Below are positions 878 to 22,378 of a stretch of DNA of 22,934 bases, one piece after another. Position 1 is the stretch's first letter. Every line of letters starts with the position of its first letter. Source of the stretch: Trypethelium eluteriae (lineage: Eukaryota); assembly GCA_051942245.1 (NCBI GenBank), contig JAVECL010000036.1, positions 62,001 through 84,934 of the forward strand. The letters are read 5' to 3'. Position numbers and translations under genes: made by a program. The notes beneath the pieces are model-generated. The model was given only the letters and a program-made list of their open reading frames with translations, was not told the DNA's origin and did no database searches.

Positions 878-1754
878 TGTCGCAAAGCTCTATGAATTGA
901 GTACTGGGACAACAAGAAATAGAATCAATGGAAGAACTGCAGCTGGGAATATGGCCGGGTGGTATGATCAAGACGAGAGCGAGAGATCTGAAAGAAAAGA
1001 AAAAGAGGCTTTTGGAAGGACCTGTGCTCTTTAAGTACACAATGTGATTGGTAAAGTTATAGGAAGGTTGACATACAATTGCGGGGCAATTAACTACCGT
1101 TGCAACCCCTGTGAGGCAAAAAACATGCATCATACTACGTACGGTACCCACCAGTACCTTTCTTTCGATCCATGACGCAAGGGCCGAGCCTATGAGAAGC
1201 CCCACGCGGGACGTTCTAAGCTAGCACGGGAAGGCATCTCCACACCGCTCTGCAGGTATCACTGCTCGTGGAAGTGTTGGTGGGCCGCGGAAATAACGAG
1301 AGAAGGAAAGTTTTGCATCGAAAGATTGGAGAATTCATCCTCTCAACGCTCAAGTGTCTCGGTCTCGGGAAAGTGCAAGGCTCTTCATCCTTCTACCTCA
1401 CTCAAATGTCTGTGAGATGCGCACCTTCTTGCAGACCAGGCGAAAGAGAGGTAATTAGGTAGTTATTCGGTGTATTGCTCCAGTGTTATCTGCAGGAACC
1501 CGAAAGTACCTGTACTCTAAATCAGCAAGGCCCTTTGACCGCCCTGGCAGAACGCTGTCCGTGCTTGCAGGAGGAAATAAGTCCTTTATGCGACCTTGAC
1601 CATTCCAAACCTGAGAAGTCCACTTTTCTGATCCCGTGTACATACTCAGATACTCTCGAATCGTCTCAAATTCCTACTTCAAGGTGTTATTCGGCTCTTT
1701 GGTGGATAATCCTTTTGGTAATGCTCTGTCACCTTCCTAGTCAACTGCAGCAAA

Positions 1755-2702
1755 ATGGCCCCAACCGCAGCGCAAGATGAAGAGGACGACTACATGACTA
1801 TGCTCATTCCCGATGATGCCGTTCCAAGAAATGAAACCTCTATCCAACGCCGTGCTCGAAAACAACGGGAAGCTGAACAGCGCGCACATCCAAAAACCAA
1901 ATCCGAACTCGAACGTGAGGCTCGTGAGACTCGAGACTCTGCCCTATCCTCCTCTATTCTGACTTCCAACCCCGATAACAAAGGTGCGAAGATGATGGCC
2001 AAGCTGGGGTACAAAACGGGGCCTCTAGGTGCTGGTGGAGATCCCAATGCAAGGATGGAACCAATAAGTCTAGCAATGAAGGAGGATAAGAGTGGTATCG
2101 GGCATATCAGTGAGGCGAAGAGAAAGTTTAGAGAGGAAGCCGAAGCACTTAAGATAGATATGAAGAAAAGAAAAGTCAATGAGGAGGAGTTTCAAGAGAG
2201 GGTGAGAGCCGAGCAGCAAGAGAAGAGGATGGAAGGCCAGCTCTGGGCCGCTATGAAGATTGCAGAGAAACTTGAAGGGCCAGAGGAAAGTGTGCGGGAG
2301 GAAGAGAAGCCAGGATCCGACGATGAATCGAAGTTGAGGCCACTCACGAGCATCCCTGTCGTTTGGCGAGAGCTGGTAAGACGTGGGATTGAACAAGACC
2401 GCCAGAACCATGCTCAGCGGATGATGAGAGAATCTCTTCCTCAGGCTCGCCTCTCGGTCTCCAACAACCTAGATGAAGATGAAGACGAAGATGATGCACA
2501 AGCGTTTGGCACCGTGGAAGAAGAGATAGAGGAAGAGGATCCGGAATTAGACCAGTTCAACGCTCTGTATGTGGGCGACAGGTTAGATAAGGTCATTGCT
2601 TATCTACGGGAGAAGAATCGATACTGCTTCTGGTGTAAATACCAATATCCGAACGAGGAAATGGAGGGTTGCCCGGGTTTGACCGAAGACGAACACGGCT
2701 AG
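1755..2702 (+). CDS. G-patch domain protein with C-terminal DUF4187-type Cys motif (GPATCH11/CCDC75-like), 315 aa, intronless
   Basis: G-patch NKGAKMMAKLGYKTGPLGAGG...EPISLAMKEDKSGIG; N-terminal EEDDYM; coiled-coil and acidic segments; C-terminal YLREKNRYCFWCKYQY...CPGLTEDEH. Confidence 0.92.
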   Translation: MAPTAAQDEEDDYMTMLIPDDAVPRNETSIQRRARKQREAEQRAHPKTKSELEREARETRDSALSSSILTSNPDNKGAKMMAKLGYKTGPLGAGGDPNARMEPISLAMKEDKSGIGHISEAKRKFREEAEALKIDMKKRKVNEEEFQERVRAEQQEKRMEGQLWAAMKIAEKLEGPEESVREEEKPGSDDESKLRPLTSIPVVWRELVRRGIEQDRQNHAQRMMRESLPQARLSVSNNLDEDEDEDDAQAFGTVEEEIEEEDPELDQFNALYVGDRLDKVIAYLREKNRYCFWCKYQYPNEEMEGCPGLTEDEHG

Positions 2703-3395: not shown

Positions 3396-4492
3396 CTACG
3401 ATGCAGCTAATTGGTTGGCAAGTTGTGCCCCACTCGCGTTGTGTACAGGAAAGACTGGATGCAAGGTGTTCAACCAGAAGTACTCCTGGACCGGAATTCC
3501 GCAGCTCGGATCTAGGTAGTCCTCTGTCGGTGTCCCATTTTCGTAGGCTGTACAGTAGTTTGTCGTATTTAATATGCCGCTGCTTTGGGTATACGTTTTG
3601 GGGTTCTTGATAATATTCTCAAACACATTGTGGATATCAAAGACAAATGTAGTGGCATCGCTGTGGTTGGCAGTAAAATTAGACGCCAGTCCTGAAATCT
3701 TATTATTGAAGTACGAGATCCATGTGTTCTCCTGTTGCGAAGCCGAAGAACCATAAGTAATAGCGGTTCCGGGTGAAAGATCGACAGGTGGGACGTTGAG
3801 GAAGAGGAAGTTGCGTCCGCCGGTTTGGTAAATCTGTGAAGTATTCAGTGAGCATGAAATGGACAATCTACGAAACCTGTCGTCAGAAAACACACCTTCT
3901 CAACAAGGCCAGCATATTCTGAGATGATTACATCGTAAAGAGTTGCGTTTTGGTTATAGTATGAGTTCCCAATATCATTGATGCCAAAGAAGAAGGAGAA
4001 AATGCTATTCGATGAAGTCCAGCCCACAGTATTATTTGATCCAGTATATATTGGTAGATATTCTTGGTTCACCTGATCGATGAAGGAGAGCACCGTCGAC
4101 TCGTATGGTGCTACAAGGCTCGCATCTACAGTGGCACCTCCGTATGCTAGATTGTAAACATCGATGAAGCTTTCGTTGTACGTTGTAGTCACGAAATCGA
4201 GCCAGTTCGGTCCATTGGAAGATGTGTAACCGGGGTAAGCCGGATTCCCGAATGGATTGCTAGGACTTGGTTGTGCACCTGTGGGGACGAAGCCAGTCTG
4301 TGTATATGAATCACCACTACAGTTCTTAGCTTGTGGAGAAAATCTCTGATCAATGAACAATTCCTACAAAGAAAACCATTTCTGCACGCCTTTGAAGCCG
4401 CTCCAATACTTAGCACGACGTTGTACCGGACTTGACGATACCGATGACGCGAGCAATAGTAGCGTAATACTGAAGCTTGATAGAGAATGCAT
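3396..4492 (-). CDS. Secreted SGNH/GDSL hydrolase, carbohydrate esterase family 16 (acetylesterase)-like, about 327 aa, 3 exons
   Basis: Exons 4492-4368, 4316-3896, 3833-3396. Introns 4367-4317 (GTAGGA...GCTAAG...TAG) and 3895-3834 (GTGTGT...CAG). Signal peptide MHSLSSFSITLLLLASSVSS; splicing creates block I FSFGDSYT; also SNGPNW, NLAYGGATVD, FFGINDI, GGRNFLFLNVPP and FWLNTLHP. Confidence 0.92.
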
Positions 4493-5229: not shown

Positions 5230-5930
5230 CTGGAGATCATCGGCGCTGTGTAGAGTGATATTGGTAGGATTAGAGTCTTCGGCTCGTTTGGACTTCTGTA
5301 GCTTTCTCATTTATGATCCTAGTTGGCACGAATGTACCACACTCAAAGTTTCCTCAAGATTTTCCATATGCCCATCAGGTCCTCAGCTGTCTCTTTGTCT
5401 ACCTATGGTTCTCGAGTTGGAAATCTGTCGCTGTATAGGAGTCTTCGGTCTTATCTCGGGGCGCGAGGAGTTTTGTTGCCATCTCCGAGAGCATCAAATG
5501 AAACTGAAGTTCAATACTGTCGTTTCCGTACAACTTGTATCCTGCTTTGAGGTAGAATTATCTTTATGCTGATGGATATATGACCCGGCCGATCTGATTT
5601 AAGAGCCCTAAGACTGAGCCTGATGATGCTGAAGCAATATCCAAGAAATCTTTATCCCCGAGCCTTCGGAGAAGTCACTTCGGCCGAGATGATCAAACCG
5701 CGCAATGGTTGCTACCTAGACAAGACAAATTTAGCACTGCCTATATAATCGGGGCTTTCGGTATTTCCTCGTCTTCTTCCTGAGTAGACCGGATTTTATA
5801 TCATCGAATTCGCATGAGTACTAAGTTCTATATCTTCTCTTACAAAGATTTGATCGAAGATTACATCTCCTGTTCGTCCTGTTTTCCCAAATACGAAGTA
5901 CTCACTTGAAAATCTCAAGATCTCAGCCAA

Positions 5931-6461
5931 ATGCCTGGAGCGGCATCTTTTACGGATCATTATTGTGTCATCCTCAATATTCTCACCAATCTTGCCTACA
6001 CTCAAGATAGCCTTGACATGAGTCTCTGCAAGTCGCTCTTCATTCAGGACTCCCCAGTCTTCTACGATACATCTGATCATACCGGCTCTCACGATTCGTA
6101 TTCCATGCTTGCTGTAGACTTTGTAGAGCATGTGTGGATGGCTTTGCGCGAGTTCGATGCCACACAACACGTGTTGAGTAGCCCTCAGATCAACATCGAT
6201 AAATCAGGAATGGCGGCTCAGGCAAAGGTCGCCGTAGATGTGTTTCACCTTTTGAGGCCCAGCGAGGCATGGAAATGTGACTACATGATGATGAATGTGA
6301 CATGGAGTGTTGGTTTGATCAGAGAGGGAGAAAGGTTGTTGATCAAAAGCGTCCTTGTCGAAAAACCATTTCCACTTGAAGAGGACCCGAGCTTGCATGT
6401 GGCATCCCATCCAAAAGTCATAGCAGGTGACGTTCGGGAAAGTTCAAGCACAGAATTCTGA
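5931..6461 (+). CDS. SnoaL-like / NTF2-fold protein (dehydratase/cyclase-like), 176 aa, intronless
   Basis: Clean ORF with AAAATG-like context; TATA-like CTATATAA at 5740-5747. The pattern LAYTQDSLD...LF...FDATQHVLSSPQINID...A.AKVAV..FH...L.R.G...LIK matches SnoaL_4/scytalone-dehydratase-like proteins from memory. Confidence 0.65.
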   Translation: MPGAASFTDHYCVILNILTNLAYTQDSLDMSLCKSLFIQDSPVFYDTSDHTGSHDSYSMLAVDFVEHVWMALREFDATQHVLSSPQINIDKSGMAAQAKVAVDVFHLLRPSEAWKCDYMMMNVTWSVGLIREGERLLIKSVLVEKPFPLEEDPSLHVASHPKVIAGDVRESSSTEF

Positions 6462-11434: not shown

Positions 11435-13112
11435 TCAGATCTTCGCCGCACTCGTAGACGATGGAGGCGGCGAGGCGGTGTCTCTTCTGACCTTCTTGTC
11501 ACCTAATGATACTCCGATTCTTCGCACTACGAGCCAAGCAGGTAGAAGAGAAATGGCCCATAACCCGAAGTTGAGATACACGCCTCCTACGGAAGCCATG
11601 ACCGCAACACTATTCACTCCATACTGTTTCCGTCAGCACTTTGTGGTAAAGCTAGGATGAATAGCTATCTTTGCCGTACACTAATAGCTTGCCAGGCAGA
11701 CTCAACACCACGCAAAAGTCCTGCAGTTCTGACAACTTCGGCTGAGGTATCTGCTAGATTGCTGATTACGAAGTACCTTGTTTTGGTATTAGCACACAAA
11801 CCAAATGAAGGTGTCTCCTACTCACAAATACAGGTAGTTCACCTGAAATCCCAAGACCAAGAACAGAAACAATGCAAATGCTTTCCCGAATCCAGCGTCT
11901 GTCCAATCACAAGTCGGATGAGTCTTATGAAAGTCTGATACTAGCACTGTTGCCCATATCCACCAAGCACCTTGTAACGTGAGAATGACAAAGAAAGCAG
12001 TTCTAGCACGAGTCTTCAATAACAGTCCAGTTCGATCGAGGAATCCTCCAAGCAGATTACCGGCAATGATTGCCACGATTCCGGACAAAAACGAACCCAG
12101 AGAACGAGCGCGAACACTGAACCAGAGAGATTCATAAGTGAACATGACCGCTTCGGCGTATACTCCTTGTCCAATGAGTGTCACAATCAACAGGAAATCT
12201 TTACTGAAGAAAAGTTTCGCCGTAAGCAGGAATTCCTGTCTGATGGAGTTCGTAATCCTCATATCTACGCGAGCGTTGTCTTTGCGCTGGACCTTTTCGG
12301 GTCTGTTAAGAAGTAAGCCTGCGACTGGACCCAGGGCTTGAAGTGCTATGAAGGCCTGATAGACATGATAAGAAACCTTGCCGGCTTGATTGTTTTTGGC
12401 ATTGAGTCCAAGGTTTATGGACTACACTGCTGTCAATACTGACGTCTATTGAATCGAAGACAAGCTTGCCGCATACGCCACCCAACACTTGACCGCCTAC
12501 TCGAAAGCTCAACCAAAATCCCAGGAATCGGCCTTGATTGTATGGTTCTGGGTATGAGAGAGCTATCGCAGCCTCTGCCATCCAGAATATGCCTGCAGAG
12601 ATACCACATAAAGCCGCACCGAAGAGAACAAGCCATTCTGTTCCGAATCGGTTGTTGGTATATAGTCCAGCTGCATAGGGAGCATAGCCCATAGTTCCAA
12701 CGATCAAACTCCATTCAATACCGATATAGCAGACAATGACACTGCTGAAGCTACAAGAGACAACCATCAGGCAGAAAGTTAGAGCATTGGCACCGTTGAC
12801 AAGATATGGTTTTTCTTCACCACCAGCTCCGAGAGAGTTCATTGCTATGGGCTTTGTCTTTAGCATTCCTCACTTCACGGCTAGACGAGATTGTTACCTC
12901 CCCATATTCCAGGAGCAAGAAAATTGTACACTCCTAGTATCAATGCGTTGTACATGGTCGATCGATACCATTTCACTACACTTTCTTTAATTTTGATATT
13001 GTGGAGACGACTTTCTTTAAGCTACATTACCTTTGGCTTCGGGAAGATTGTCTGGACCTTCCCGTCTGCCCGCAGATACCTCTACATCTGATTTGTCTTC
13101 GGATTTATCCAT
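11435..13112 (-). CDS. UNC-93-like major facilitator superfamily transporter (DUF895-type), about 469 aa, 6 exons
   Basis: Exons 13112-13031, 12975-12898, 12844-12477, 12421-11826, 11776-11680, 11623-11435. Introns are 49-56 nt, GT...AG, and the spliced frame is continuous. Family motifs: KWYRSTMYNALILG..NFLAPGIWGAMNSLGAGG, YAPYAAGLY, GAALCGISAGIFWMAEAAIALSYPE...GRF, WFSVRARSLGS, GLLRGVESAWQAISYG. Confidence 0.9.
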
Positions 13113-13303
13113 TTTGGAGTTATATCTTGCCAAAGGTGATTGTTTTGATACCTAATGCCAATCTGTGACATGGTGGATTTATGTACTAGCTCTGCTATCT
13201 ACAGTACCAGCTAAAGATGCTATCTCTTTGGCGCGCTATTGCGTCTCCTCCGCTCCGCGACAGCGAATCAGTGGTCTTGGCCCTCAGGACGTTGAGAAAA
13301 ATC

Positions 13304-13340
13304 TGCGGAACATATTTTGTGCTGTCCGCTTGGACCCGCA
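13304..13340. promoter_or_regulatory. Inverted element TGCGG-N27-CCGCA in the transporter promoter (copy A)
   Basis: TGCGGAACATATTTTGTGCTGTCCGCTTGGACCCGCA, about 190-230 bp upstream of the transporter ATG. Same ends and same 37-bp length as copy B at 15229-15265. CGG triplets are typical Zn2Cys6 half-sites. Confidence 0.5.
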
Positions 13341-13486
13341 TTGTGCACGCTGACGTGCTCGCACGGAATTGCGCCTAGGTATTGCATGCTTTGAGCTTGG
13401 GCCTGTGGAGTAAAAGCTCTGCATTTAAACCGAATTGCATTGAATCTTGAGCAAGATTACAGTCTGTACATTGATCATACGCCTTT

Positions 13487-14926
13487 TTAGGAGCCATTTA
13501 GGCTTGCTGGCTGTTCCTCTCCTGCTTTCCAGGAATACTTCGCGCCAGGATGCGACTTGGATAATCTGTTTTGACTTTTCTGACCAAGATAATTCTCTCT
13601 CAGTGATCCTCCAGGTACTGCATAATCCTCCCAAAACAAACCGCGCTTCCTGAGTTCTGGCAGTAGTAGAGTGACAATATCCCGGAAGGTCTCGGGAACA
13701 GATGCGTAGCTAAAATTGAAACCATCAACATCCGCAACCTCGACCCATCTCTCCAGTTCGTTTGCGACAGTGATTGGACTTCCGATCAGTTTGGCGCCAT
13801 TTCCACCTAGGATGAGCCACTCTGCGATTGTCTTTTTATTCCATGTAAGGCCTTGTGGACTCACTTGTGCCCAATGGTTCACCATGCTCCTAACAGCTGG
13901 CGGAGCTGACTCGCTGAACCTGAAATCTTCGTCATCAGCATATTTGCTGAGATCATAAGCAGACCATCCACCGAACAAGGCAAGCGCTCCTTCATGATCA
14001 CCGTAGGAAGCTAGCTCCTTATACTTCTCCTGTGCTGCTTCATCCGTCTCAGCGACAATAACCAGAAGTCCTGTGACTATCTTGATACTCTGTGGATCTC
14101 GTCCCAAATCTGCGGCTTGTTTTCTGATGCTCTCTACTGAGGGTTTGACCAACCCCGGGGTATGTCCATTGAGAAAAATAGCCTCCGCATGCGTTGCAGC
14201 AAAGGTACGACCTGCAGTTGAAGTCCCGGCTTGAAAAAGGAACGGTGTACGTTGCCGAGAAGGTTCACAGAGATGAGGACCGGGAACATTGAAGTACTTT
14301 CCCTTATGATGAATCTCTCTCACGCTTTTGGGATCGGCATATGCACCTTGAGGATTGCCGGGTGGAAGAACAGCATCATCTCGCCACGAGCCTTCCCACA
14401 ATTTGTAAACAACTTCCATGTATTCATTCGCAATACGATAACGCTCATCGTGTTCAATTTGAGCATTCAAAGAAAAATTCCTAGCTGCTGAATCCAGATA
14501 TGAGGTCACAATATTCCAGGCAACCCTACCATTACTCAATTGGTCGACCGTTGAGAACCTTCTTGCCATCGCATATGGTGCTTCATAGGTGGTAGATGCT
14601 GTCACGCCGAATCCAATGCTTTCAGTCACTGCAGCCATGGCCGGAATGGTATATAGAGGATCGTTAATTGGAAATTGACTGGCCGCAGGTATAGTTGGTT
14701 CAAGGTTAGCAGGGCCTTTGTACACATCGTAACCACCAAGAACATCCGCGAAGAAGATAGCATGGAATTTGGCTTCTTCTAACTCTTTTGCTAATTCCAT
14801 CCAATGATGTATCGAATTGTACTTGCGGCCTTCATCTTTGGGGTATTTGAAGAGACCTGGATTTAAGTGACCAGGTGCCTGCATAGCAAAGGCGTTGATT
14901 ATGTATTGCTTTTTTGTTCCCGCCAT
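13487..14926 (-). CDS. Bacterial luciferase-like FMNH2-dependent monooxygenase, NtaA/SnaA/DszA family (LadA/DmoA-like subgroup), 479 aa, intronless
   Basis: ATG at 14926 (MAGTKKQYIINAF; the TTG start in the ORF track is not appropriate for a fungus). Motifs FHAIFFADVLGGYDVY, QFPINDP, TASTTYEAPYAMARRFST.D.LSNGRVAWNIVTS, EHDERY..A.EY.EV.YKLWEGSW, HKGKYFNVPGPHLCEPSRQRTP.LFQAG.S, VDGFN, LLPELRKRG, GSLRE. These closely follow Geobacillus LadA / DmoA-type sequences as I recall them. Confidence 0.95.
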   Translation of the reverse strand: MAGTKKQYIINAFAMQAPGHLNPGLFKYPKDEGRKYNSIHHWMELAKELEEAKFHAIFFADVLGGYDVYKGPANLEPTIPAASQFPINDPLYTIPAMAAVTESIGFGVTASTTYEAPYAMARRFSTVDQLSNGRVAWNIVTSYLDSAARNFSLNAQIEHDERYRIANEYMEVVYKLWEGSWRDDAVLPPGNPQGAYADPKSVREIHHKGKYFNVPGPHLCEPSRQRTPFLFQAGTSTAGRTFAATHAEAIFLNGHTPGLVKPSVESIRKQAADLGRDPQSIKIVTGLLVIVAETDEAAQEKYKELASYGDHEGALALFGGWSAYDLSKYADDEDFRFSESAPPAVRSMVNHWAQVSPQGLTWNKKTIAEWLILGGNGAKLIGSPITVANELERWVEVADVDGFNFSYASVPETFRDIVTLLLPELRKRGLFWEDYAVPGGSLRENYLGQKSQNRLSKSHPGAKYSWKAGEEQPASLNGS

Positions 14927-15228
14927 GTCATATGCAGCGCGATTCAAATCTGGCAATAGACGCAATGAAAAATGAATACAAAGTCTCCGTCAAGTTGTGA
15001 ATGGAGACGTTTGCTGAACATGCCTTTTGGCCTGGCACTCGAATTGGAACATAAGGTATTCGTGTCGACGTAACTCAAGGGCCGAACGAATCATGTTTGC
15101 AACTCTGTGCAAGGCTTTCTACCCCCGTGGACGCATTGCAGGCCCAAGCGTGACGATGATTGAGTCTCGATGGCGTAAGAGCTCGTTTTGGGGTAAGTTC
15201 TTGCACTATGCCATGATAAGATATTCGA

Positions 15229-15265
15229 TGCGGAATATTTTGACGTCTGCATACATCGTCCCGCA
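15229..15265. promoter_or_regulatory. Inverted element TGCGG-N27-CCGCA in the divergent monooxygenase promoter (copy B)
   Basis: TGCGGAATATTTTGACGTCTGCATACATCGTCCCGCA, extending to a 7-bp inverted repeat GATGCGG...CCGCATC. It lies in the 546-bp gap between the ATGs at 14926 and 15473 and is flanked by opposed GATA sites (TGATAA 15214-15219, TTATCT 15288-15293). Confidence 0.5.
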
Positions 15266-15472
15266 TCATTTCCCCCTCAACGAAGCCTTATCTCGGAAAT
15301 TTCGTCATCGCAAAGCTCATGACAAATTTGTTTCGCGGGAAGAGAATGTCCAAAATTACAGAGGAGATGACTCGCTGGCCATCAGACATGCTCAAATCAC
15401 ACGTGTTAGGAAGGGGGCGGCGAAGAGCAGGGCTATTTGATCCAACAAGAAAACCACTTCAGGAGTGTCAAC

Positions 15473-17417
15473 ATGTCACAAGAAGTGCCTCTTCTGCACA
15501 TTCTTCCTAAAACTGTGAATGAGAATTCTGCGGTAGTCTCTGATCTGTCCACTCGGCCCGATGGTCTCATCCCAGGAACGGCGATCCAATCCGATCTTGA
15601 CATCGGTGCGAAGCATGGAGGTTTTGCATTGGAAGAGCACTCCATAGATGCAACGCCTGATTTGAAGGTTCTCCAGATTCAAGTCGGAATTGTTCTTCGG
15701 CAAATCTGATTCTCTCTGCATATACAGGTTGCCGCTATTGGTGCGGGGATTTCTGGCATCGTTGCTTCAGTCCTCTTACCCATAAAGGTTCCGGGTATCC
15801 AGCTCACCGTTATTGAGAAGAACTCTGATGTGGTAAGCTTAGCTTCTCCTGCTCCTACTTCAACCGTTCTCATGTCAAGCTCAGGGAGGCACATGGTTCG
15901 AAAATGTCTACCCCGGAATTCGTTGCGATATTCCTGCCCACGTATACCAATCGACCTTCGAACCCAATACCCAATGGAGTGAGGAATATGCACAAGGCAG
16001 GGAAATACGTGATTATTGGCAGCGTATTGCAAGGAAATATGACATATACAAGTATTTGCGTACCAATACAAAGGTCCTCGAGGCAGGATGGAAAGAAATG
16101 GCCGCACAATGGACCCTAAGCTTGGAGAATACCAAGACTGGCTCAAAATATGAAGACTCCTTCGATGTGGTTGTTACAGCCATCGGGAGGTTCAATGATT
16201 GGAAGCTTCCTGATTATCCAGGCATCAAAACATTTGCTGGACATCTGCGACATGCCAGCAACTGGGATCCGACTTTCAATCCGGAAGGCAAGACTGTTGC
16301 AGTAATTGGAAATGGTGCAAGTGGACTTCAAGTCGTGCCAAATTTACAGAAGATTGTCAAGAGACTTGATCACTATGCAAGAAGCCCTACGTGGATTGCT
16401 GGTTCCTTTGCTGGAGAAGGTGAAGGTAGAAAACTTGAACCGAACTACTTTTCCGAGGAGCAATTGAGGACCTTTGGAGATCCCTTCGAATATCTGAAAT
16501 ACCGCAGACGACTGGAAGCGAAGTTCTTCCGAAGGTTCGAGACCGTCTTCAGAGGTTCAGACGCAAATAAGAATTTGACTCGGCAATTCAGTACAGCAAT
16601 GGCTGATCGATTGAAACGGAAACCAGAAATACTTGATTATATATTGCCAAGCTTTTCTCCAAATTGCAGACGACTTACTCCAGGACCTGGATATCTCGAA
16701 GCACTCACGGAAGACAATGTCAACTTTATTCCGACGCCGATATCGGAGTTTACCAAAGATGGCATAGTGACAGCAGACAAAATCGAACGAAAGGTAGAAG
16801 CCGTCATCTGCTGTACCGGCGCCAATATTGACATGCTTCCCCCCTTTCCCATCAAAAGTCAAGCGGGAACACTTCAAGATACATGGAAGCCAGATCCCTA
16901 TACATATATTGGAATAGCGACACCGAATTTTCCGAATCTTCTCTTCATCCAGGGACCAAATGGCACTGGTGTCAGTGGTACTGTCCCGAATCAGATTGAA
17001 ACTCAGGTCACTTATATCGCTCAATTACTGAGGAAGGTCAAACAACAGAGCATCAAAACTTTTAGTCCACTGAAAGAGGCAGCCGATGACTTTGTGGAAT
17101 ACAGTGATGCATTCTTTGCGCGAACTGTCTGGACAGATCAATGCAAGTCATGGGCGAATAGTGGAAAACCCGGAGGAAGGATACATGGGCATTGGCCGGG
17201 AAGTGCATCCCAACTCAACATTGTACGCCGCAGCCCAAGATGGGAGGACTGGGAATGGACCTATCGCTCGGAGACTGGAAACCGATTTGCGTACTTTGGC
17301 AATGGCTGGACGACAAAAGAAGAAATCCCTAGCGAAGACTCAGATCTTGTGCAATATCTGCAGCAGCCACATGCTGTTGACTTGAGGATTTATCATGAAG
17401 AATGGTTTAGTGTTTAG
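15473..17417 (+). CDS. Type I Baeyer-Villiger monooxygenase (class B flavoprotein monooxygenase; StcW/MoxY-like family), about 610 aa, 3 exons
   Basis: Exons 15473-15667, 15728-15832, 15885-17417; introns 15668-15727 and 15833-15884. FAD Rossmann motif AIGAGISG; BVMO fingerprints GGTWFENVYPGIRCD and FAGHLRHASNWD; NADPH Rossmann motif VIGNGASG; CRRLTPGPGYL; ICCTG. Confidence 0.94.
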
Positions 17418-17600: not shown

Positions 17601-18358
17601 CTATGTACAGAAAGGCTCTAAACCGGTTCTAATGAACTCTTCAATTTTGGCTAATCCATACAGGTTATTTTCACGCCGCGCAAACTTGAATTGATCTTTC
17701 GTCCAGCCGCCTGTCCCTGCCTTGAGCCCAAGCTTTTCTCCTTCTGATGTACTTGAGTCGAAGTCTCCAATAACCCAGCTGTTGCCATGAGAGTAAATGT
17801 TATGTGGATTGATGTCGCAATGAATGATACCAAGTTTGTGAAGGTGCTCAATTCCCGATCGTATCTCTTTCAAGCATGATAGTCTGTCAAAAGGCTCAGA
17901 GGCCTTGACTCTTGAGCCAAATTGGCTCCATATCTCAGGAAACATAGCCTTGTGATTCTGCCGCCGTCAACCACACACCCGAGGTATTGAGCAATATTTG
18001 GATGTGGACATTTCCTCAAAGTCTCACAAATTTGCGCCTCATGAAGTACGAGTGTACTTATCTCAGTGGATGTCTTACTATCACCATAGGATAGTGAAGA
18101 GGGACGTTTGACGTAAAGATTTTGCAGCAGTGGTTCTGGTGCTCGTGTAAAGCTTGTCGGAAACTCTGGCCAAATATCTGAGGTGCGCATTGGAATACAG
18201 GTAAGCTCGGAAGGATCGATCTCGTCGATGCTACGGAAACGGCGATGAGTAACGGCGTAATGGTATTCGGAGTCTCCTTTGAGGATAACCTTGGTATGAG
18301 AAAATTCAAGGTCGTCGTTCCTTCCCACAAACACTTCGCAGCTCTCTAAAATCTCCAT
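17601..18358 (-). pseudogene. Small fungal protein-kinase-like gene with a 1-nt frameshift (pseudogene or sequencing error); about 252 aa if repaired
   Basis: N-lobe YVKRP...EAQICETLRKCPHPNIAQYLGCVV is in one frame; C-lobe GIEHLHKLGIIHCDINPHNI...VIGDFDS...GTGGW is in another. The junction TTG GCT CAA GAG TC is repaired by one extra A (CAA AGA GTC) at about 17912-17913. No room or signals for an intron there. Confidence 0.8.
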
Positions 18359-18361
18359 CAC

Positions 18362-18604: not shown

Positions 18605-20477
18605 TCCAGCATTATAAAAGCTACATGTACACTTTATTGAGGAATTTAAAGTTGCTTCAGAGGACCTTGAGATGGAATTACGTTCCATGGGTTGACATTA
18701 CCTCACTAATATTAATGCATGTATCAATTTATACCTTCCTCTCTCTCAACTTATCGTGAGCGAAGCTGTATCTGTGGAAATACATGTGGGATTGGGTTCC
18801 ATCATAGTTGTCACCACGTTCGCTCTGATGTATATAGTCATCTTCACAATCCTCCGGAAACTCAGACCTTAAATCTAAAATCAACGGCTATTCATTCCAC
18901 AGACTCAACAACTTGAAGTTCTACAACACAACACTCTATTTAGCTCCAAATTCAGCCACAGATTTGGGTAGAAGCTTACACGCGTCAAAGCGAGCAAAAG
19001 TGTGTGTCCGTTCAGCGCAGAAAGCGAGTAGAACTGCACTCGTATCAAGAAAAGATAGGGATGTGGCACGAGGTATATAGCAAGCGAGGCTAATGTAATT
19101 CGACCGTGGGATAGAAGAACGCATTCAGTCAGGCTGCGACCACCAAGCGAATAATAAAATAAATGAAGTAGTCTTTACAAACGATCTCAAATGCTGTGAA
19201 CCGGTGGCCGTCTTCAAGGTGAGGAAAAAGCCACAACAATGAGCATCGCACTCTTGGAACTTTAACTATTCTGCAGCCTATTTATACTCTCCCGAATGAC
19301 CGCGAAGCACTTTGGGGCTAGCCGCATTACTGTATGTGTTTGCATCGATAATAGCAAACCCGGTGGGTTCCAAGGGCAATGTAACCAACAGCATTTCAAG
19401 AAACTTGAGACTGACAACCGGCACGACAAATAGTAAAGGTGATTGACCCGCTCATAACACACATTTGCGAGACGGCGGCATCTGTAGTCTTTTGGGGAAA
19501 TGGAATTCGGTAGGTACGGCTAAGTTCGAAGCTGATCAGCTTGCGTGCCAAGTCTTCGCACAGCCACAAGCCTGATAGCCACCGGGAGTAAATTACACCA
19601 TGACTTGATCTGTGGCTGAGTATAATTGCAGAAGCTTTCCACCATCCGCCACCTGAGACTGTAATCCTCGTAGCATGTGCGAGAGCTTGGCGCGAAGCAA
19701 TGAGAGAGACAAAATCAGAAATGTACAATCCTTCTTGAGAGTTGCTGACAGCAATGCCGGTTATCGTGGCATCACAATTTTCCTGGTGCACCAAGCGATT
19801 CTCTTCATCTTAACGAATCAGTTAAATGCAAAGCTCACGACACCTCCGTTTCTGGAAAGTAGAGTAAGTTAGAACTTAAACTTTAGGCGTCATGCAAATG
19901 CGGTAGATACGGATGGGTGTCAATATTTTGGCTGTCCAGTTATGTTCGATTTGATCGATCCCCGACCGGTTTTTGATCACAACGGTCAGTCGGAGCGGTT
20001 ATCTCCCATCTGTTGCTTTTTCCTTGAAACATAACCGTTTAAGTGGAGCGAATACAAGGTCTTGATTGGTAACTTCGGAACTTCTGGAACAGCGAACACC
20101 GAAATTGGGATTCTTGCGATTAGGAACTTGGATCATTAATAGGCATTCGACGCTGGTCCACGAGGCATTGGGGTTCGCAGTCCCGAAAGTTTGTTACTAA
20201 AGCGTCTGATTGTGAACGGGACTTCCGACTACGTACAAGAGCACATGGCACACTAGGTATTCTTGAACTCTAATAATCGATCAAAGTTGCGGACTGTTTC
20301 GCGTCATCCACATATCCAGTAACAGCCTTCATCGTTTATCAAATCCCGAAGTGGATACCTTTGGCAGCCTCTTTATTAAACGAAAACCTCCGATTACACA
20401 AACAGAATTCGACATCAAATTCCAAAAGCTTTAGTTCTTTGTGTTCTTGCGACCTGGATAATCCAATCTCGGTCATC

Positions 20478-22378
20478 ATGTCGTCTCACTCAGTAGAAAG
20501 CCATGACATTCAGACAGATGTGCTGATTGTTGGTGCTGGCCCGGCTGCGGCGTCGCTTGCCTGTTTTCTTGGATATCATGGTATTACGGGTGTTATGATT
20601 TCTAGCAATTCTACGACAGCCCTACAGCCTCGTGCCCACTTTACAAACAGTGCTGCATTCGGTTTGTGTCTGACGAATATCGCTTTTTATAATATAGGAT
20701 ACTGATTACTGCTTAGAATGTCTTCGAGATATAGGTCTTGAAAAGGATTTCCGTGATGTCTCGTTGAGCAACTCATACTATGGTTACTATCGTTTTTGCC
20801 ATCGTTTGACGGGGCCTGATTTCGTTCGATACCATTCTTTTGGGAAACATCCAGACAGATTAGTGGGATAGTTTCATCCAGGCGGCTTATGTATCTACTA
20901 ACTGTACCAAGGGTGACTACGAAAAAATCTCTCCTTGTGAGCACGCCGATGTCTCTCAAAACGTAGGAGAACCAATTCTTCTCAAATATGCTACACAACA
21001 CGGATTTCAAGCTCGCTTTGACTACAAATTTCTCGAATACAACAAAGATTCAACTTCAGGATTGATCACGAGCACCGTCGAGGACCAAATTAGCAAGCGA
21101 ACAATCCGCATTGTTTCAAGATACCTCTGTGGTGGAGATGGCGCAGGCAGCTCTGTTGTTCGCCAGACCGGACTTCCATTCCATGATACAACAGTGCCTG
21201 GAGCTCTCGCTCTGAATGTGTGGTATGAAGCAGATCTAACCGACATTTATCGATTGAATCCCGGCCTCCTTCATGCGATCGCGACGCCTGAGATTGACGG
21301 GCCTCCCTGGGGACTTGTAGCAATTAATCGTATAGTCCGACCTTATACCGAGTTCCTGATGATCATGATTGGTACACCGGGAGTTTCAAACAAAGTGAGC
21401 GAAGTAGAGATCAGAAATCGTCTGAGAGATTTTCTCGGAAATGACAGTATCAATATCAAGATTAAAGGAGTTTCTCGATGGCGAATCAATGAGGCCTATG
21501 CGGAAAAAATAAGTGATGGAAATATCTTCGGTTTAGGAGATGCTATTCACAGACATCCCCCGGGTAATGGCCTGGGCAGCAATACTTCTTTTCAAGACTC
21601 GTATAACTTGGCTTGGAAAATTGCTTATGTGATACAAGGGCGTGCTGATCCTTCGCTTCTGGAAAGTTACAACGCCGAAAGACAGCCAGTGGGTAAACGC
21701 ATCGTCAGAATCGCCAATGACACCCTCCGAAATCATAATGCATTTTATCAAGCATTGGGAATAACTCTTTCCACTATTGAAGAGAGACTGTCGGCGCTTC
21801 AGGAGTTAGAACAAGACAGTCCGGCTGGTGCGGAGCGAAGGGCTAAACTCAAAAACGCATATCAAGCTCTCGAAGCAGAGACCGAAGGACTTGGGGCGGA
21901 AATGAATCAGAAATATGTGTCAAGTGCCGTGTATCTTGATGATGAAATGGATACCGGTCCCAAGTGGGAGGAAACAGCATTAGGAACTCGATTCCATGTT
22001 GTTAGCACTTTTCCTGGCTCACGACTGCCGCATGCTTGGCTTGGAACTAAGAAACTCGGCGAAAAGTTGTCAACTCACGATCTTGCGGGACACGGAGAGT
22101 TCACCATTTTCACTGGAATAGGAGGCAAAGCCGCCTGGGAAAAGGCTGCAGACGATGTTATGGCAGTCTTCAAGATCAAGATCAACGTGTACAGCATCGG
22201 ACGTGGACAAGATTACCAGGACACGTTCTATATGTGGGAGGATCGAAGAGAAGTTGATGACAATGGTGCGGTTCTGGTTAGGCCTGACAGAAGCATTGCA
22301 TGGCGTAGCAAAGATTCATCGCACGCGGGAAAGCTATCTGATGTCACGCAGAGACTATTAGGATTTGAAAGCCGCTAG
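20478..22378 (+). CDS. Class A FAD-dependent aromatic hydroxylase (PheA/TfdB family, 2,4-dichlorophenol 6-monooxygenase-like), about 598 aa, 3 exons
   Basis: Exons 20478-20661, 20717-20862, 20912-22378. Introns 20662-20716 (GTTTGT...CTGAT...TAG) and 20863-20911 (GTGGGA...CTAAC...AAG). Motifs DVLIVGAGPAA, PRAH..N..A.ECLRDIG, YLCGGDGAGS, GDAIHRHPPGNGLGSNTSFQDSYNLAWK, LLESYNAERQPVG, PGSRLPHAWL, VLVRPD. Confidence 0.94.

What the first reader, a model, noticed from the sequence alone, without database searches (positions are those of the whole stretch)
11435..17417. Candidate undescribed fungal catabolic cluster: UNC-93-like transporter + LadA/DszA-type monooxygenase + divergent BVMO
Seen: three tightly packed genes (gaps of 374 and 546 bp), the two oxygenases head-to-head, and a shared promoter element. 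Known: NtaA/DszA/DmoA/CmoJ-family enzymes use FMNH2 and O2 to cleave C-S or C-N bonds (LadA hydroxylates long alkanes), and type I BVMOs oxidise thioethers to sulfoxides/sulfones as well as ketones to esters. In the Bacillus S-alkylcysteine salvage pathway, a sulfoxidation step precedes C-S cleavage by a DszA-family enzyme. Inference: this is an uptake -> S-oxidation (BVMO) -> C-S cleavage (luciferase-like enzyme) module for scavenging sulfur from organosulfur compounds. Alternatives are alkane/ketone catabolism or C-N cleavage for nitrogen. I know of no characterised fungal pathway with this trio.
Basis: partly seen in the sequence, partly recalled or inferred. Interest (0 to 1): 0.7.

Follow-up and report, generated by a model that had tools for sequence, protein, structure and literature searches.

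The report
Conserved fungal sulfur-scavenging gene trio
A lichen-type fungus carries a transporter and two flavin enzymes that sit together in many moulds and most likely let the fungus pull sulfur out of an unidentified organic compound when sulfate runs short, a job whose fungal enzymes appear untested.

Summary
The three genes, both gaps (374, 546 bp) and the head-to-head layout are real. The LLM is an NtaA/DmoA-family enzyme with DmoA-like, not LadA-like, pocket residues. The BVMO is an ordinary type I BVMO of 610 aa. The transporter is a DUF895/UNC-93 MFS protein. Linkage recurs across four fungal classes: LLM and BVMO are adjacent in 10 of 13 lineages checked, and the transporter is within five genes of an oxygenase in 11 of 13. 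The sulfur reading has three supports. (1) Neurospora NCU05885/86/88, annotated as the same three families, are CYS-3-bound and induced over 100-fold by sulfur starvation; orthology is inferred, not tested by sequence. (2) Both oxygenases are Cys/Met-poor (1.3-1.5% against 3.6%). (3) One CYS-3-like site lies in the divergent promoter (weak). The likeliest candidate for the 'shared promoter element' is at chance level, and the transporter promoter lacks the CYS-3 motif. Substrate and reaction order are unknown, and no flavin reductase is in the cluster. This scan already noted a similar cluster in Podospora (e1-7124316). Verdict: a real, conserved, biochemically uncharacterised sulfur-starvation module that works like bacterial organosulfur-scavenging operons.

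The parts
11435..13112 (-). DUF895/UNC-93-family MFS transporter, about 469 aa, probably six exons (13112-13031, 12975-12898, 12844-12475, 12421-11826, 11776-11680, 11622-11435). The first intron is my reading by eye; the database model (435 aa) starts at 12955.
13487..14926 (-). Intronless NtaA/DmoA-family FMNH2-dependent luciferase-like monooxygenase (fungal clade A), 479 aa, Cys+Met 1.46%
15473..17417 (+). Type I Baeyer-Villiger-family FAD monooxygenase, 610 aa, exons 15473-15667, 15728-15832, 15885-17417; Cys+Met 1.31%
14927..15472 (.). 546-bp divergent promoter shared by LLM and BVMO
15169..15179 (-). CYS-3/MetR-like site, 10 of 11 match to the Neurospora DAP-seq consensus; about 245 bp from the LLM start and 295 bp from the BVMO start. 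Weak alone (shuffle P about 0.10).
13113..13486 (.). 374-bp gap between LLM stop and transporter start; no CYS-3-like site at up to 2 mismatches; holds one copy of the chance-level 13-mer (13304-13316; other copy 15229-15241)

Best explanation
A sulfur-starvation module, probably under the fungal bZIP activator CYS-3/MetR, that scavenges sulfur from a small polar organosulfur compound. Inferred working order: the DUF895 transporter imports a thioether or sulfoxide (an S-alkylcysteine or methionine derivative, or a thio-sugar); the NADPH/FAD BVMO oxidises the sulfur; the DmoA-like LLM, given FMNH2 by a reductase encoded elsewhere (a flavin reductase or the zinc-type MDR oxidoreductase seen beside related clusters), cleaves the C-S bond to an aldehyde plus a thiol, sulfenate or sulfinate; other regulon enzymes such as the SfnG-like LLM and TauD dioxygenases of the same genome carry it on to sulfite. 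Shown here: genes, families, conserved linkage, sulfur-poor composition. Shown in Neurospora for presumed counterparts: CYS-3 binding and induction. Inferred: orthology to those genes, regulation in this species, substrate, order. About 0.8 for the sulfur module; about half of that for this particular order.
For: Linkage: LLM and BVMO consecutive in 10 of 13 lineages; transporter consecutive or merged with an oxygenase in 9 of 13, within five genes in 11 of 13; full trio in Bathelium, Phialocephala, Scytalidium and Corynascus. Neurospora NCU05885 (flavin-binding monooxygenase), NCU05886 (DUF895), NCU05888 (DszA-type) are CYS-3-bound, log2 induction 7.3, 8.4, 8.1, and silent in the cys-3 mutant; a second DUF895 gene, NCU10512, is also a direct target (PMC8550094 supplements). 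Corynascus, in the same order as Neurospora (taxonomy recalled), has BVMO-DUF895-LLM in that order, with BVMO 56-57% and transporter 65-66% identical to the window's, against at most about 35% and 40% for the long matches to this genome's own paralogues. Four DszA-type genes are methionine-repressed in T. reesei (PMC4536894). An amino-acid permease named methionine permease lies between LLM and transporter in A. alliaceus. Cys+Met: LLM 1.46% (P 0.005), BVMO 1.31% (P 0.0006) against 3.55% in 20 background ORFs; BVMO against ten own-genome paralogue loci pooled at 3.58%, P 0.001; five bacterial LLM relatives 2.8-3.6%; homologue means 1.15% and 1.39% (119 each). Best solved relative is dimethyl-sulfide monooxygenase (434 bits; LadA 409) with DmoA residues at LadA positions 138, 311 and 315.
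Against: No Neurospora sequence could be obtained, so orthology rests on annotation and synteny. The Corynascus trio uses the paralogous LLM clade B (54-55% to the window's LLM), so which Neurospora LLM, if either, is the true orthologue is open. The CYS-3-like site is weak (P about 0.10), the transporter promoter has none, and the homologous divergent promoter in L009 has only 2-mismatch sites. The transporter is not significantly sulfur-poor (2.76%, P 0.23); 3 of 10 BVMO paralogue loci and the neighbouring FAD monooxygenase are also low (1.6-1.9%), and the ATP sulfurylase exon, a true sulfur gene, is not (4.3%). Linkage is broken in Bogoriella (BVMO), Xylona and one Mollisiaceae genome (transporter), and orientation varies (divergent, convergent, tandem). 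The pairs looked up were partly chosen because they shared a contig length, which inflates the fractions. No reductase is in the cluster. No enzyme of this clade has a known substrate in what I read.
Confidence: 0.8

Rival explanations
1. Nested within the sulfur reading: the genes are co-regulated sulfur-scavenging tools but not one BVMO-then-LLM pathway. The LLM cleaves a thioether directly, as DmoA does, and the BVMO oxidises the released thiol or sulfinate, the carbon part, or a different substrate.
For: The LLM is closer to DmoA (434 bits), which cleaves a sulfide, than to YtnJ/MoxC (220; recalled as CmoJ) or DszA (230). Partners are exchanged between genomes: either LLM clade, and BVMO, transporter, permease, MDR or SSF symporter in varying sets. 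In several Aspergillus genomes LLM and transporter are linked, but no linked BVMO was seen in the lists read.
Against: LLM-BVMO adjacency is the most frequent link (10 of 13 lineages) and occurs with both LLM clades, which fits handling of a shared intermediate.
Confidence: 0.4
2. Alkane or ketone catabolism: LadA-type terminal hydroxylation plus Baeyer-Villiger cleavage for carbon.
For: LadA is the second-best solved relative (409 bits); A. flavus LadA homologues were proposed in silico as alkane monooxygenases (PMC9468676); one of five A. parasiticus homologues rose on long-chain alkane relative to hexadecane (bioRxiv 2024.12.16.628742).
Against: LadA pocket His138 and His311 are Tyr143 and Leu317 here; LadA's alkane activity could not be reproduced in vitro (PMC12449030); an MFS importer is not expected for alkanes (inference); sulfur-poor composition and CYS-3 control are not predicted by this reading.
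Confidence: 0.05
3. C-N cleavage for nitrogen scavenging (NtaA or EDTA-monooxygenase-like).
For: Same HMM family; an SSF-family symporter flanks the related cluster L016; UNC-93 is mentioned in a paper on the GlcNAc importer Ngt1 (search listing only).
Against: Nitrilotriacetate and EDTA monooxygenases score far lower (172 and 110 bits); GATA-type sites are not enriched (4 against 2.7 expected); similar urea/Na+-type transporters are methionine-repressed in T. reesei.
Confidence: 0.06
4. Chance neighbours in a compact genome.
For: Gaps of a few hundred bases are common in fungi (general knowledge); the shared element is chance.
Against: Linkage kept across Dothideomycetes, Leotiomycetes, Lecanoromycetes, Eurotiomycetes and Sordariomycetes with changed order and orientation, and none of the window's other flanking proteins tested (FAD monooxygenase, kinase-like, IQ-like, SnoaL-like) hit the 14 metagenome loci.
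Confidence: 0.02

Closest known systems
Neurospora crassa CYS-3 target genes NCU05883-NCU05888 (Huberman et al. 2021, PMC8550094)
   Same: Neighbouring genes annotated flavin-binding monooxygenase, DUF895 protein and DszA-type enzyme, in the order seen in Corynascus; sulfur-starvation induced and CYS-3-bound.
   Different: Six genes rather than three (adds a Seo1 MFS, an oxidoreductase and a second 'xenobiotic compound monooxygenase'); the passages seen do not treat them as a cluster or pathway; orthology to the window's genes was not tested by sequence.
DmoA dimethyl-sulfide monooxygenase (PDB 6ak1)
   Same: Best solved relative, E 6e-129 over residues 5-465; shares Tyr, Leu and Trp at LadA positions 138, 311, 315.
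   Different: No cognate flavin reductase (DmoB, recalled) beside it; linked to a BVMO and an importer, which suggests a polar substrate rather than volatile DMS; activity untested.
Bacillus S-alkylcysteine salvage pathway CmoO/CmoJ (PMC10863075)
   Same: Logic of sulfoxidation followed by flavin-dependent C-S cleavage; the LLM is a homologue of YtnJ/MoxC (220 bits; identity with CmoJ recalled).
   Different: The putative sulfoxidase is a type I BVMO, not CmoO; no acetyltransferase seen nearby; the LLM is much closer to DmoA and LadA than to CmoJ.
LadA and the A. flavus LadA-alpha-3 homologues (PDB 3b9n; PMC9468676)
   Same: Same subfamily, E 2e-121; most FMN-site residues kept (Asp58, Thr104, Asn133, His154, Tyr158, Ala227 equivalents).
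   Different: His138, His311, Tyr312 and Gly315 are replaced; the alkane role of LadA itself was not reproduced (PMC12449030).
Type I BVMOs (PAMO, CHMO; fungal StcW-like labels)
   Same: Fingerprints present; best PDB matches E about 1e-45, FMOs only 1e-12.
   Different: A distinct fungal orthogroup, sulfur-poor, with no characterised member found.

Membership tests
NtaA/DmoA-family FMN-dependent monooxygenase (TIGR03860) | Score above the curated cut-off over the whole model | tested here: met
   478.7 bits against 279.7, positions 2-422 of 422
NtaA/DmoA-family FMN-dependent monooxygenase (TIGR03860) | Two-component system with a cognate flavin reductase encoded alongside | tested here: not met
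   None among the 18 window ORFs scanned; four Flavin_Reduct matches lie on other contigs
LadA long-chain alkane monooxygenase | Pocket residues His138 and His311 | tested here: not met
   Tyr143 and Leu317 in the alignment (residue list from PMC9468676)
DmoA dimethyl-sulfide monooxygenase | Closest solved relative with matching pocket substitutions | tested here: met
   434 bits, best of 21 matches
DmoA dimethyl-sulfide monooxygenase | Cleaves dimethyl sulfide with FMNH2 and O2 | not testable with these tools
   Needs an enzyme assay
SsuD / SfnG / RutA | Score above each equivalog cut-off | tested here: not met
   89 of 518, 84 of 383, 70 of 498 bits; the genome's SfnG-like gene is on another contig
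CmoO/CmoJ S-alkylcysteine salvage pathway | Acetyltransferase and CmoO-type sulfoxidase encoded with the C-S cleaving enzyme | tested here: not met
   Neither among the window ORFs scanned; the neighbour is a BVMO
Type I Baeyer-Villiger monooxygenase | Two GxGxxG motifs flanking FxGxxxHxxxW(P/D), plus the [A/G]GxWxxxx[F/Y]P[G/M]xxxD motif (motifs recalled) | tested here: met
   All read by eye in the translations; PDB ranking BVMO far above FMO
Type I Baeyer-Villiger monooxygenase | Ketone-to-ester or sulfoxidation activity | not testable with these tools
   Needs an enzyme assay
UNC-93/DUF895 MFS transporter | Pfam PF05978 above gathering score | tested here: met
   35.7 bits against 22.9; atlas neighbours agree
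CYS-3/MetR sulfur-starvation regulon | Sequence orthology to NCU05885, NCU05886, NCU05888 or NCU05883 | not testable with these tools
   No Neurospora protein appeared; inferred from Corynascus synteny
CYS-3/MetR sulfur-starvation regulon | CYS-3 site in the promoters | tested here: inconclusive
   One 10-of-11 site in the divergent promoter (P about 0.10), none for the transporter; hand count 5 of 8 control sulfur genes against 7 hits in about 100 kb
CYS-3/MetR sulfur-starvation regulon | Cys/Met-poor enzymes (sulfur sparing; principle recalled) | tested here: met
   Both oxygenases about 40% of background, P 0.005 and 0.0006; transporter not significant
CYS-3/MetR sulfur-starvation regulon | Induction by sulfur starvation in this organism | not testable with these tools
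   Needs RNA data under sulfur limitation

The most novel reading that the evidence does not exclude
Filamentous ascomycetes share an old, mobile organosulfur-salvage pathway in which a single-component BVMO takes the place of the bacterial two-component sulfoxidase, a DmoA-like enzyme then cuts the C-S bond, a non-classical MDR oxidoreductase supplies reduced FMN, and DUF895/UNC-93 proteins are a so far unassigned class of organosulfur importers (thio-sugars or S-alkyl amino acids).
Probability: 0.3. Interest if true: 0.65.

Novelty: new variant of a known kind. Interest (0 to 1): 0.45.

Why it matters
Fungi induce many uncharacterised oxygenases and transporters when sulfur is short, also inside plant hosts (R. 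lauricola, PMC7441637), yet which organic sulfur compounds they use is largely open. A conserved importer-plus-two-oxygenase unit gives a small, testable set: Neurospora counterparts have expression and binding data, and orthologues are named in Botrytis, Sclerotinia and Aspergillus. It would reassign fungal 'LadA alkane monooxygenases' of this clade to sulfur metabolism, give a first substrate class to a DUF895 subfamily, and could yield a new sulfoxidising BVMO. It is not a surprise in kind: bacteria have analogous operons and the Neurospora regulation is published.

Tried and rejected
Shared promoter 13-mer: chance level and not conserved. Exact CYS-3 footprint consensus, Cbf1-type and FarA motifs: no match in either gap; GATA and CreA-type sites near expectation. 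My first BVMO model (one intron, wrong boundary) was wrong; the database protein gives two introns and 610 aa. RNA runs: no RNA holder listed. Neurospora sequences: none surfaced in three homologue searches and three cluster look-ups; the L011 LLM was not in the collection. A. fumigatus metR supplement: 0 hits for five annotation terms, so the orthologue could not be traced. Botrytis and Sclerotinia gene IDs: no paper listed for the LLM or BVMO; two listed for neighbour SS1G_14237, not read. R. lauricola DUF895 gene RL4_JR_01697 is up in planta (log2 5.8) but its six neighbours read are not oxygenases of this kind, and 5 of the 7 DUF895 places were not viewed. The two TauD-Pfam genes beside this genome's transporter paralogues do not match the taurine-dioxygenase model, so that context is weak; one is very sulfur-poor (0.25%). 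Bacterial neighbours of distant LLM relatives gave no sulfur signal (12 proteins). A scripted promoter-set enrichment test was not obtained; only a hand count stands. C. albicans single mutants of related monooxygenases had no taurine phenotype, a warning about redundancy. No fold, complex or representative-library job was sent, as none would settle the substrate. Earlier-findings look-ups by relatives, by sequence and by the first word set gave nothing relevant.
Full report
Observation. The window lies on contig C36 of a 29-Mb fungal assembly. The BVMO exon searched and the transporter exon searched are 100% identical to proteins that the database names Viridothelium virens, and the next named relatives are Bathelium and Bogoriella; that these are lichen-forming Trypetheliales is recalled. 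The gaps are 374 and 546 bp and the oxygenases are head-to-head. The database transporter model lacks an N-terminal stretch that orthologues have; a 55-nt intron at 13030-12976 would restore it and give about 469 aa (read by eye, not checked against transcripts).

Families. The LLM passes TIGR03860 (478.7 against 279.7) and fails SsuD, SfnG and RutA. Among 21 solved relatives the order is dimethyl-sulfide monooxygenase 434 bits, LadA 409, hexachlorobenzene dehalogenase 281, riboflavin lyase 240, DszA 230, YtnJ/MoxC 220, nitrilotriacetate monooxygenase 172. Against the LadA pocket list in PMC9468676 (passage), the FMN-site residues are mostly kept, but His138, His311 and Gly315 become Tyr143, Leu317 and Trp321, as in DmoA. 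The BVMO has the type I fingerprints (recalled motifs, read by eye) and ranks with PAMO and CHMO at about 1e-45, FMOs at 1e-12. All three proteins have abundant ascomycete homologues: 70-90% for the best 119 LLM hits, 57-79% for the BVMO, 61-79% for the transporter exon.

Promoters. The likeliest 'shared element' (13304 and 15229) matches at 11 of 13 bases; 57 of 60 shuffled pairs do as well. A different site, at 15169-15179, matches the Neurospora CYS-3 DAP-seq consensus at 10 of 11 (shuffle P about 0.10); the transporter gap has none at two mismatches. By hand, with start codons placed by eye, a site with at most one mismatch lies within 1 kb upstream of 5 of 8 control sulfur genes of this genome (PAPS reductase, ATP sulfurylase, two taurine dioxygenases and the SfnG-like gene yes; a sulfate permease and two TauD genes no). 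Adding the three other TauD-Pfam genes fetched makes it 5 of 11. Background is 7 hits in about 100 kb. So the motif seems to be used in this species, and the site is modest support only.

Linkage. Using consecutive locus tags or accessions as a proxy for adjacency, LLM and BVMO are neighbours in 10 of 13 lineages where both identifiers were seen (Bathelium, Bacidia, Varicellaria, Helicocarpus, a Mollisiaceae genome, Mollisia, Phialocephala, Acephala, Scytalidium, and Sclerotiniaceae counted once), five apart in Aplosporella, and not near in Xylona and Bogoriella. The transporter is consecutive or merged with an oxygenase in 9 of 13 (Bathelium, Phialocephala, Scytalidium, Bogoriella, Venturia inaequalis, Rhizodiscina, Coniochaeta, Corynascus, Achaetomium), two to five apart in Aspergillus section Flavi and Malbranchea, eleven tags apart in V. 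effusa, and on another contig in the Mollisiaceae genome. I looked up 30 proteins, chosen partly for shared contig length, so the fractions are biased upward. Of 14 metagenome loci, four carry a BVMO homologue (L009 divergent, L011 and L012 convergent and apparently the same sequence, L016 tandem), two carry a UNC-93 gene (L018, L020), three are bacterial-like and five short contigs show no partner. A 28-row tree splits fungal LLMs into clade A (window; 100/100) and clade B (this genome's lone paralogue on C337, Corynascus, L016, L018, L019; 100/97); it is midpoint-rooted, several rows are single exons, and only five bacterial rows were included, so it says nothing on donor or order of events. 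Both clades pair with the BVMO and with the transporter.

Regulation elsewhere. I recalled a Neurospora cluster and checked it in PMC8550094 (main-text passages; supplement rows). NCU05884 (Seo1 MFS), NCU05885 (flavin-binding monooxygenase), NCU05886 (DUF895), NCU05887 (oxidoreductase) and NCU05888 (DszA-type) are CYS-3-bound and induced by log2 6.7, 7.3, 8.4, 10.3 and 8.1, and flat in the cys-3 mutant. NCU05883 (xenobiotic compound monooxygenase) rises from below 0.5 to 141-376 FPKM and is bound, though marked not confirmed by their filter. The word 'cluster' occurs twice in the main text, neither time for these genes. Corynascus has the order BVMO, DUF895, LLM, like NCU05885-86-88, with orthogroup-level identity for BVMO and transporter and a clade-B LLM. 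This is synteny-based inference. In T. reesei four DszA-type genes are methionine-repressed (PMC4536894, passages with Table 1; not mapped to my clades).

Composition. Cys+Met is 1.46% in the LLM and 1.31% in the BVMO against 3.55% in 20 background ORFs (P 0.005 and 0.0006) and 3.58% in ten own-genome BVMO/FMO paralogue loci (P 0.001); five bacterial LLM relatives have 2.8-3.6%. Four of five known-type sulfur controls are low (0-1.7%) and the ATP sulfurylase exon is not (4.3%). Three paralogue loci and three background ORFs are also at or below about 2.2%, and the transporter (2.76%) is not significant. That sulfur-assimilation enzymes are sulfur-poor is recalled; one search gave a listing only.

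Mechanism. The evidence points to a sulfur-starvation module (about 0.8). The importer argues for a polar substrate rather than DMS (inference); a methionine-permease-like gene inside the A. alliaceus cluster points to an amino-acid derivative, and UNC-93 kinship with the GlcNAc importer Ngt1 (listing only; otherwise recalled) to a thio-sugar. BVMO sulfoxidation followed by LLM cleavage copies the CmoO/CmoJ logic (PMC10863075, passages) and fits the tight LLM-BVMO link, but direct DmoA-like cleavage with a later or parallel BVMO step is equally open. FMNH2 must come from outside the cluster: four flavin-reductase-family matches lie elsewhere, and an MDR oxidoreductase sits near this genome's SfnG-like gene and, at 50% identity, upstream of the BVMO-LLM pair in L016, echoing NCU05887. 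The alkane reading is weak: the pocket differs, and LadA activity was not reproduced (PMC12449030: abstract, most of Results), although one A. parasiticus homologue rose on long-chain alkane (bioRxiv 2024.12.16.628742, passages; its supplements are closed, so the clade is unknown).

Novelty. Ten literature searches of an open-access library found no paper describing this trio as a pathway or an enzyme of either clade with a tested substrate; subscription journals are mostly not covered. The regulation of the presumed Neurospora counterparts is published, and this scan has already reported a similar cluster in Podospora and related yeast clusters. I file it as a new variant of a known kind: it works like bacterial sulfur-starvation organosulfur operons, it is a member of the NtaA/DmoA, type I BVMO and UNC-93 families, and it is not a member of LadA, SsuD, SfnG or the CmoO/CmoJ pathway as defined. 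Interest 0.45.

Noticed in passing
G000:C80:33162-36046 (L035) and G000:C73:11965-14220 (L036): Both detected paralogues of the transporter lie head-to-head with a TauD-Pfam dioxygenase gene; neither matches the taurine-dioxygenase model, but the C80 one has only 1 Cys/Met in 394 aa.
   Followed up: partly
G000:C14 (L042:4076-8150): An SfnG-like LLM with an MDR oxidoreductase upstream, each with a CYS-3-like site; the MDR is 50% identical to the gene upstream of BVMO and LLM in L016.
   Followed up: partly
G000:C337:8738-10261 (L006/L007): Intron-containing clade-B LLM paralogue (55%) with no BVMO or UNC-93 gene in the 20 kb fetched.
   Followed up: partly
window 20277-22378 (+): FAD_binding_3 aromatic-hydroxylase-type monooxygenase 3 kb from the BVMO; also Cys/Met-poor (1.8%) but not seen in the related loci.
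   Followed up: partly
window 17601-18361 (-): Kinase-like gene in two overlapping frames (Pfam Pkinase E 5e-7, below cut-off); intron or frameshift not resolved.
   Followed up: no
proteins P0250, P0480, P0488, P0451, P0461: Database models that merge cluster genes (LLM+transporter, BVMO+transporter+LLM, permease+transporter); probably annotation merges of tandem genes, true fusions not excluded.
   Followed up: partly
proteins P0441, P0454: In Aspergillus the transporter is flanked by a gene labelled 7alpha-cephem-methoxylase P8-related and by an amino-acid permease; possible extra pathway members absent from this window.
   Followed up: partly
G000:C642:12300-15682 (L039): PAPS reductase and ATP sulfurylase genes are adjacent, each with a CYS-3-like site upstream.
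   Followed up: partly
window 1722-2702, 3396-4363, 5910-6458: G-patch/DUF4187 gene, GDSL lipase-like gene and SnoaL-like ORF; ordinary and unrelated to the trio.
   Followed up: no
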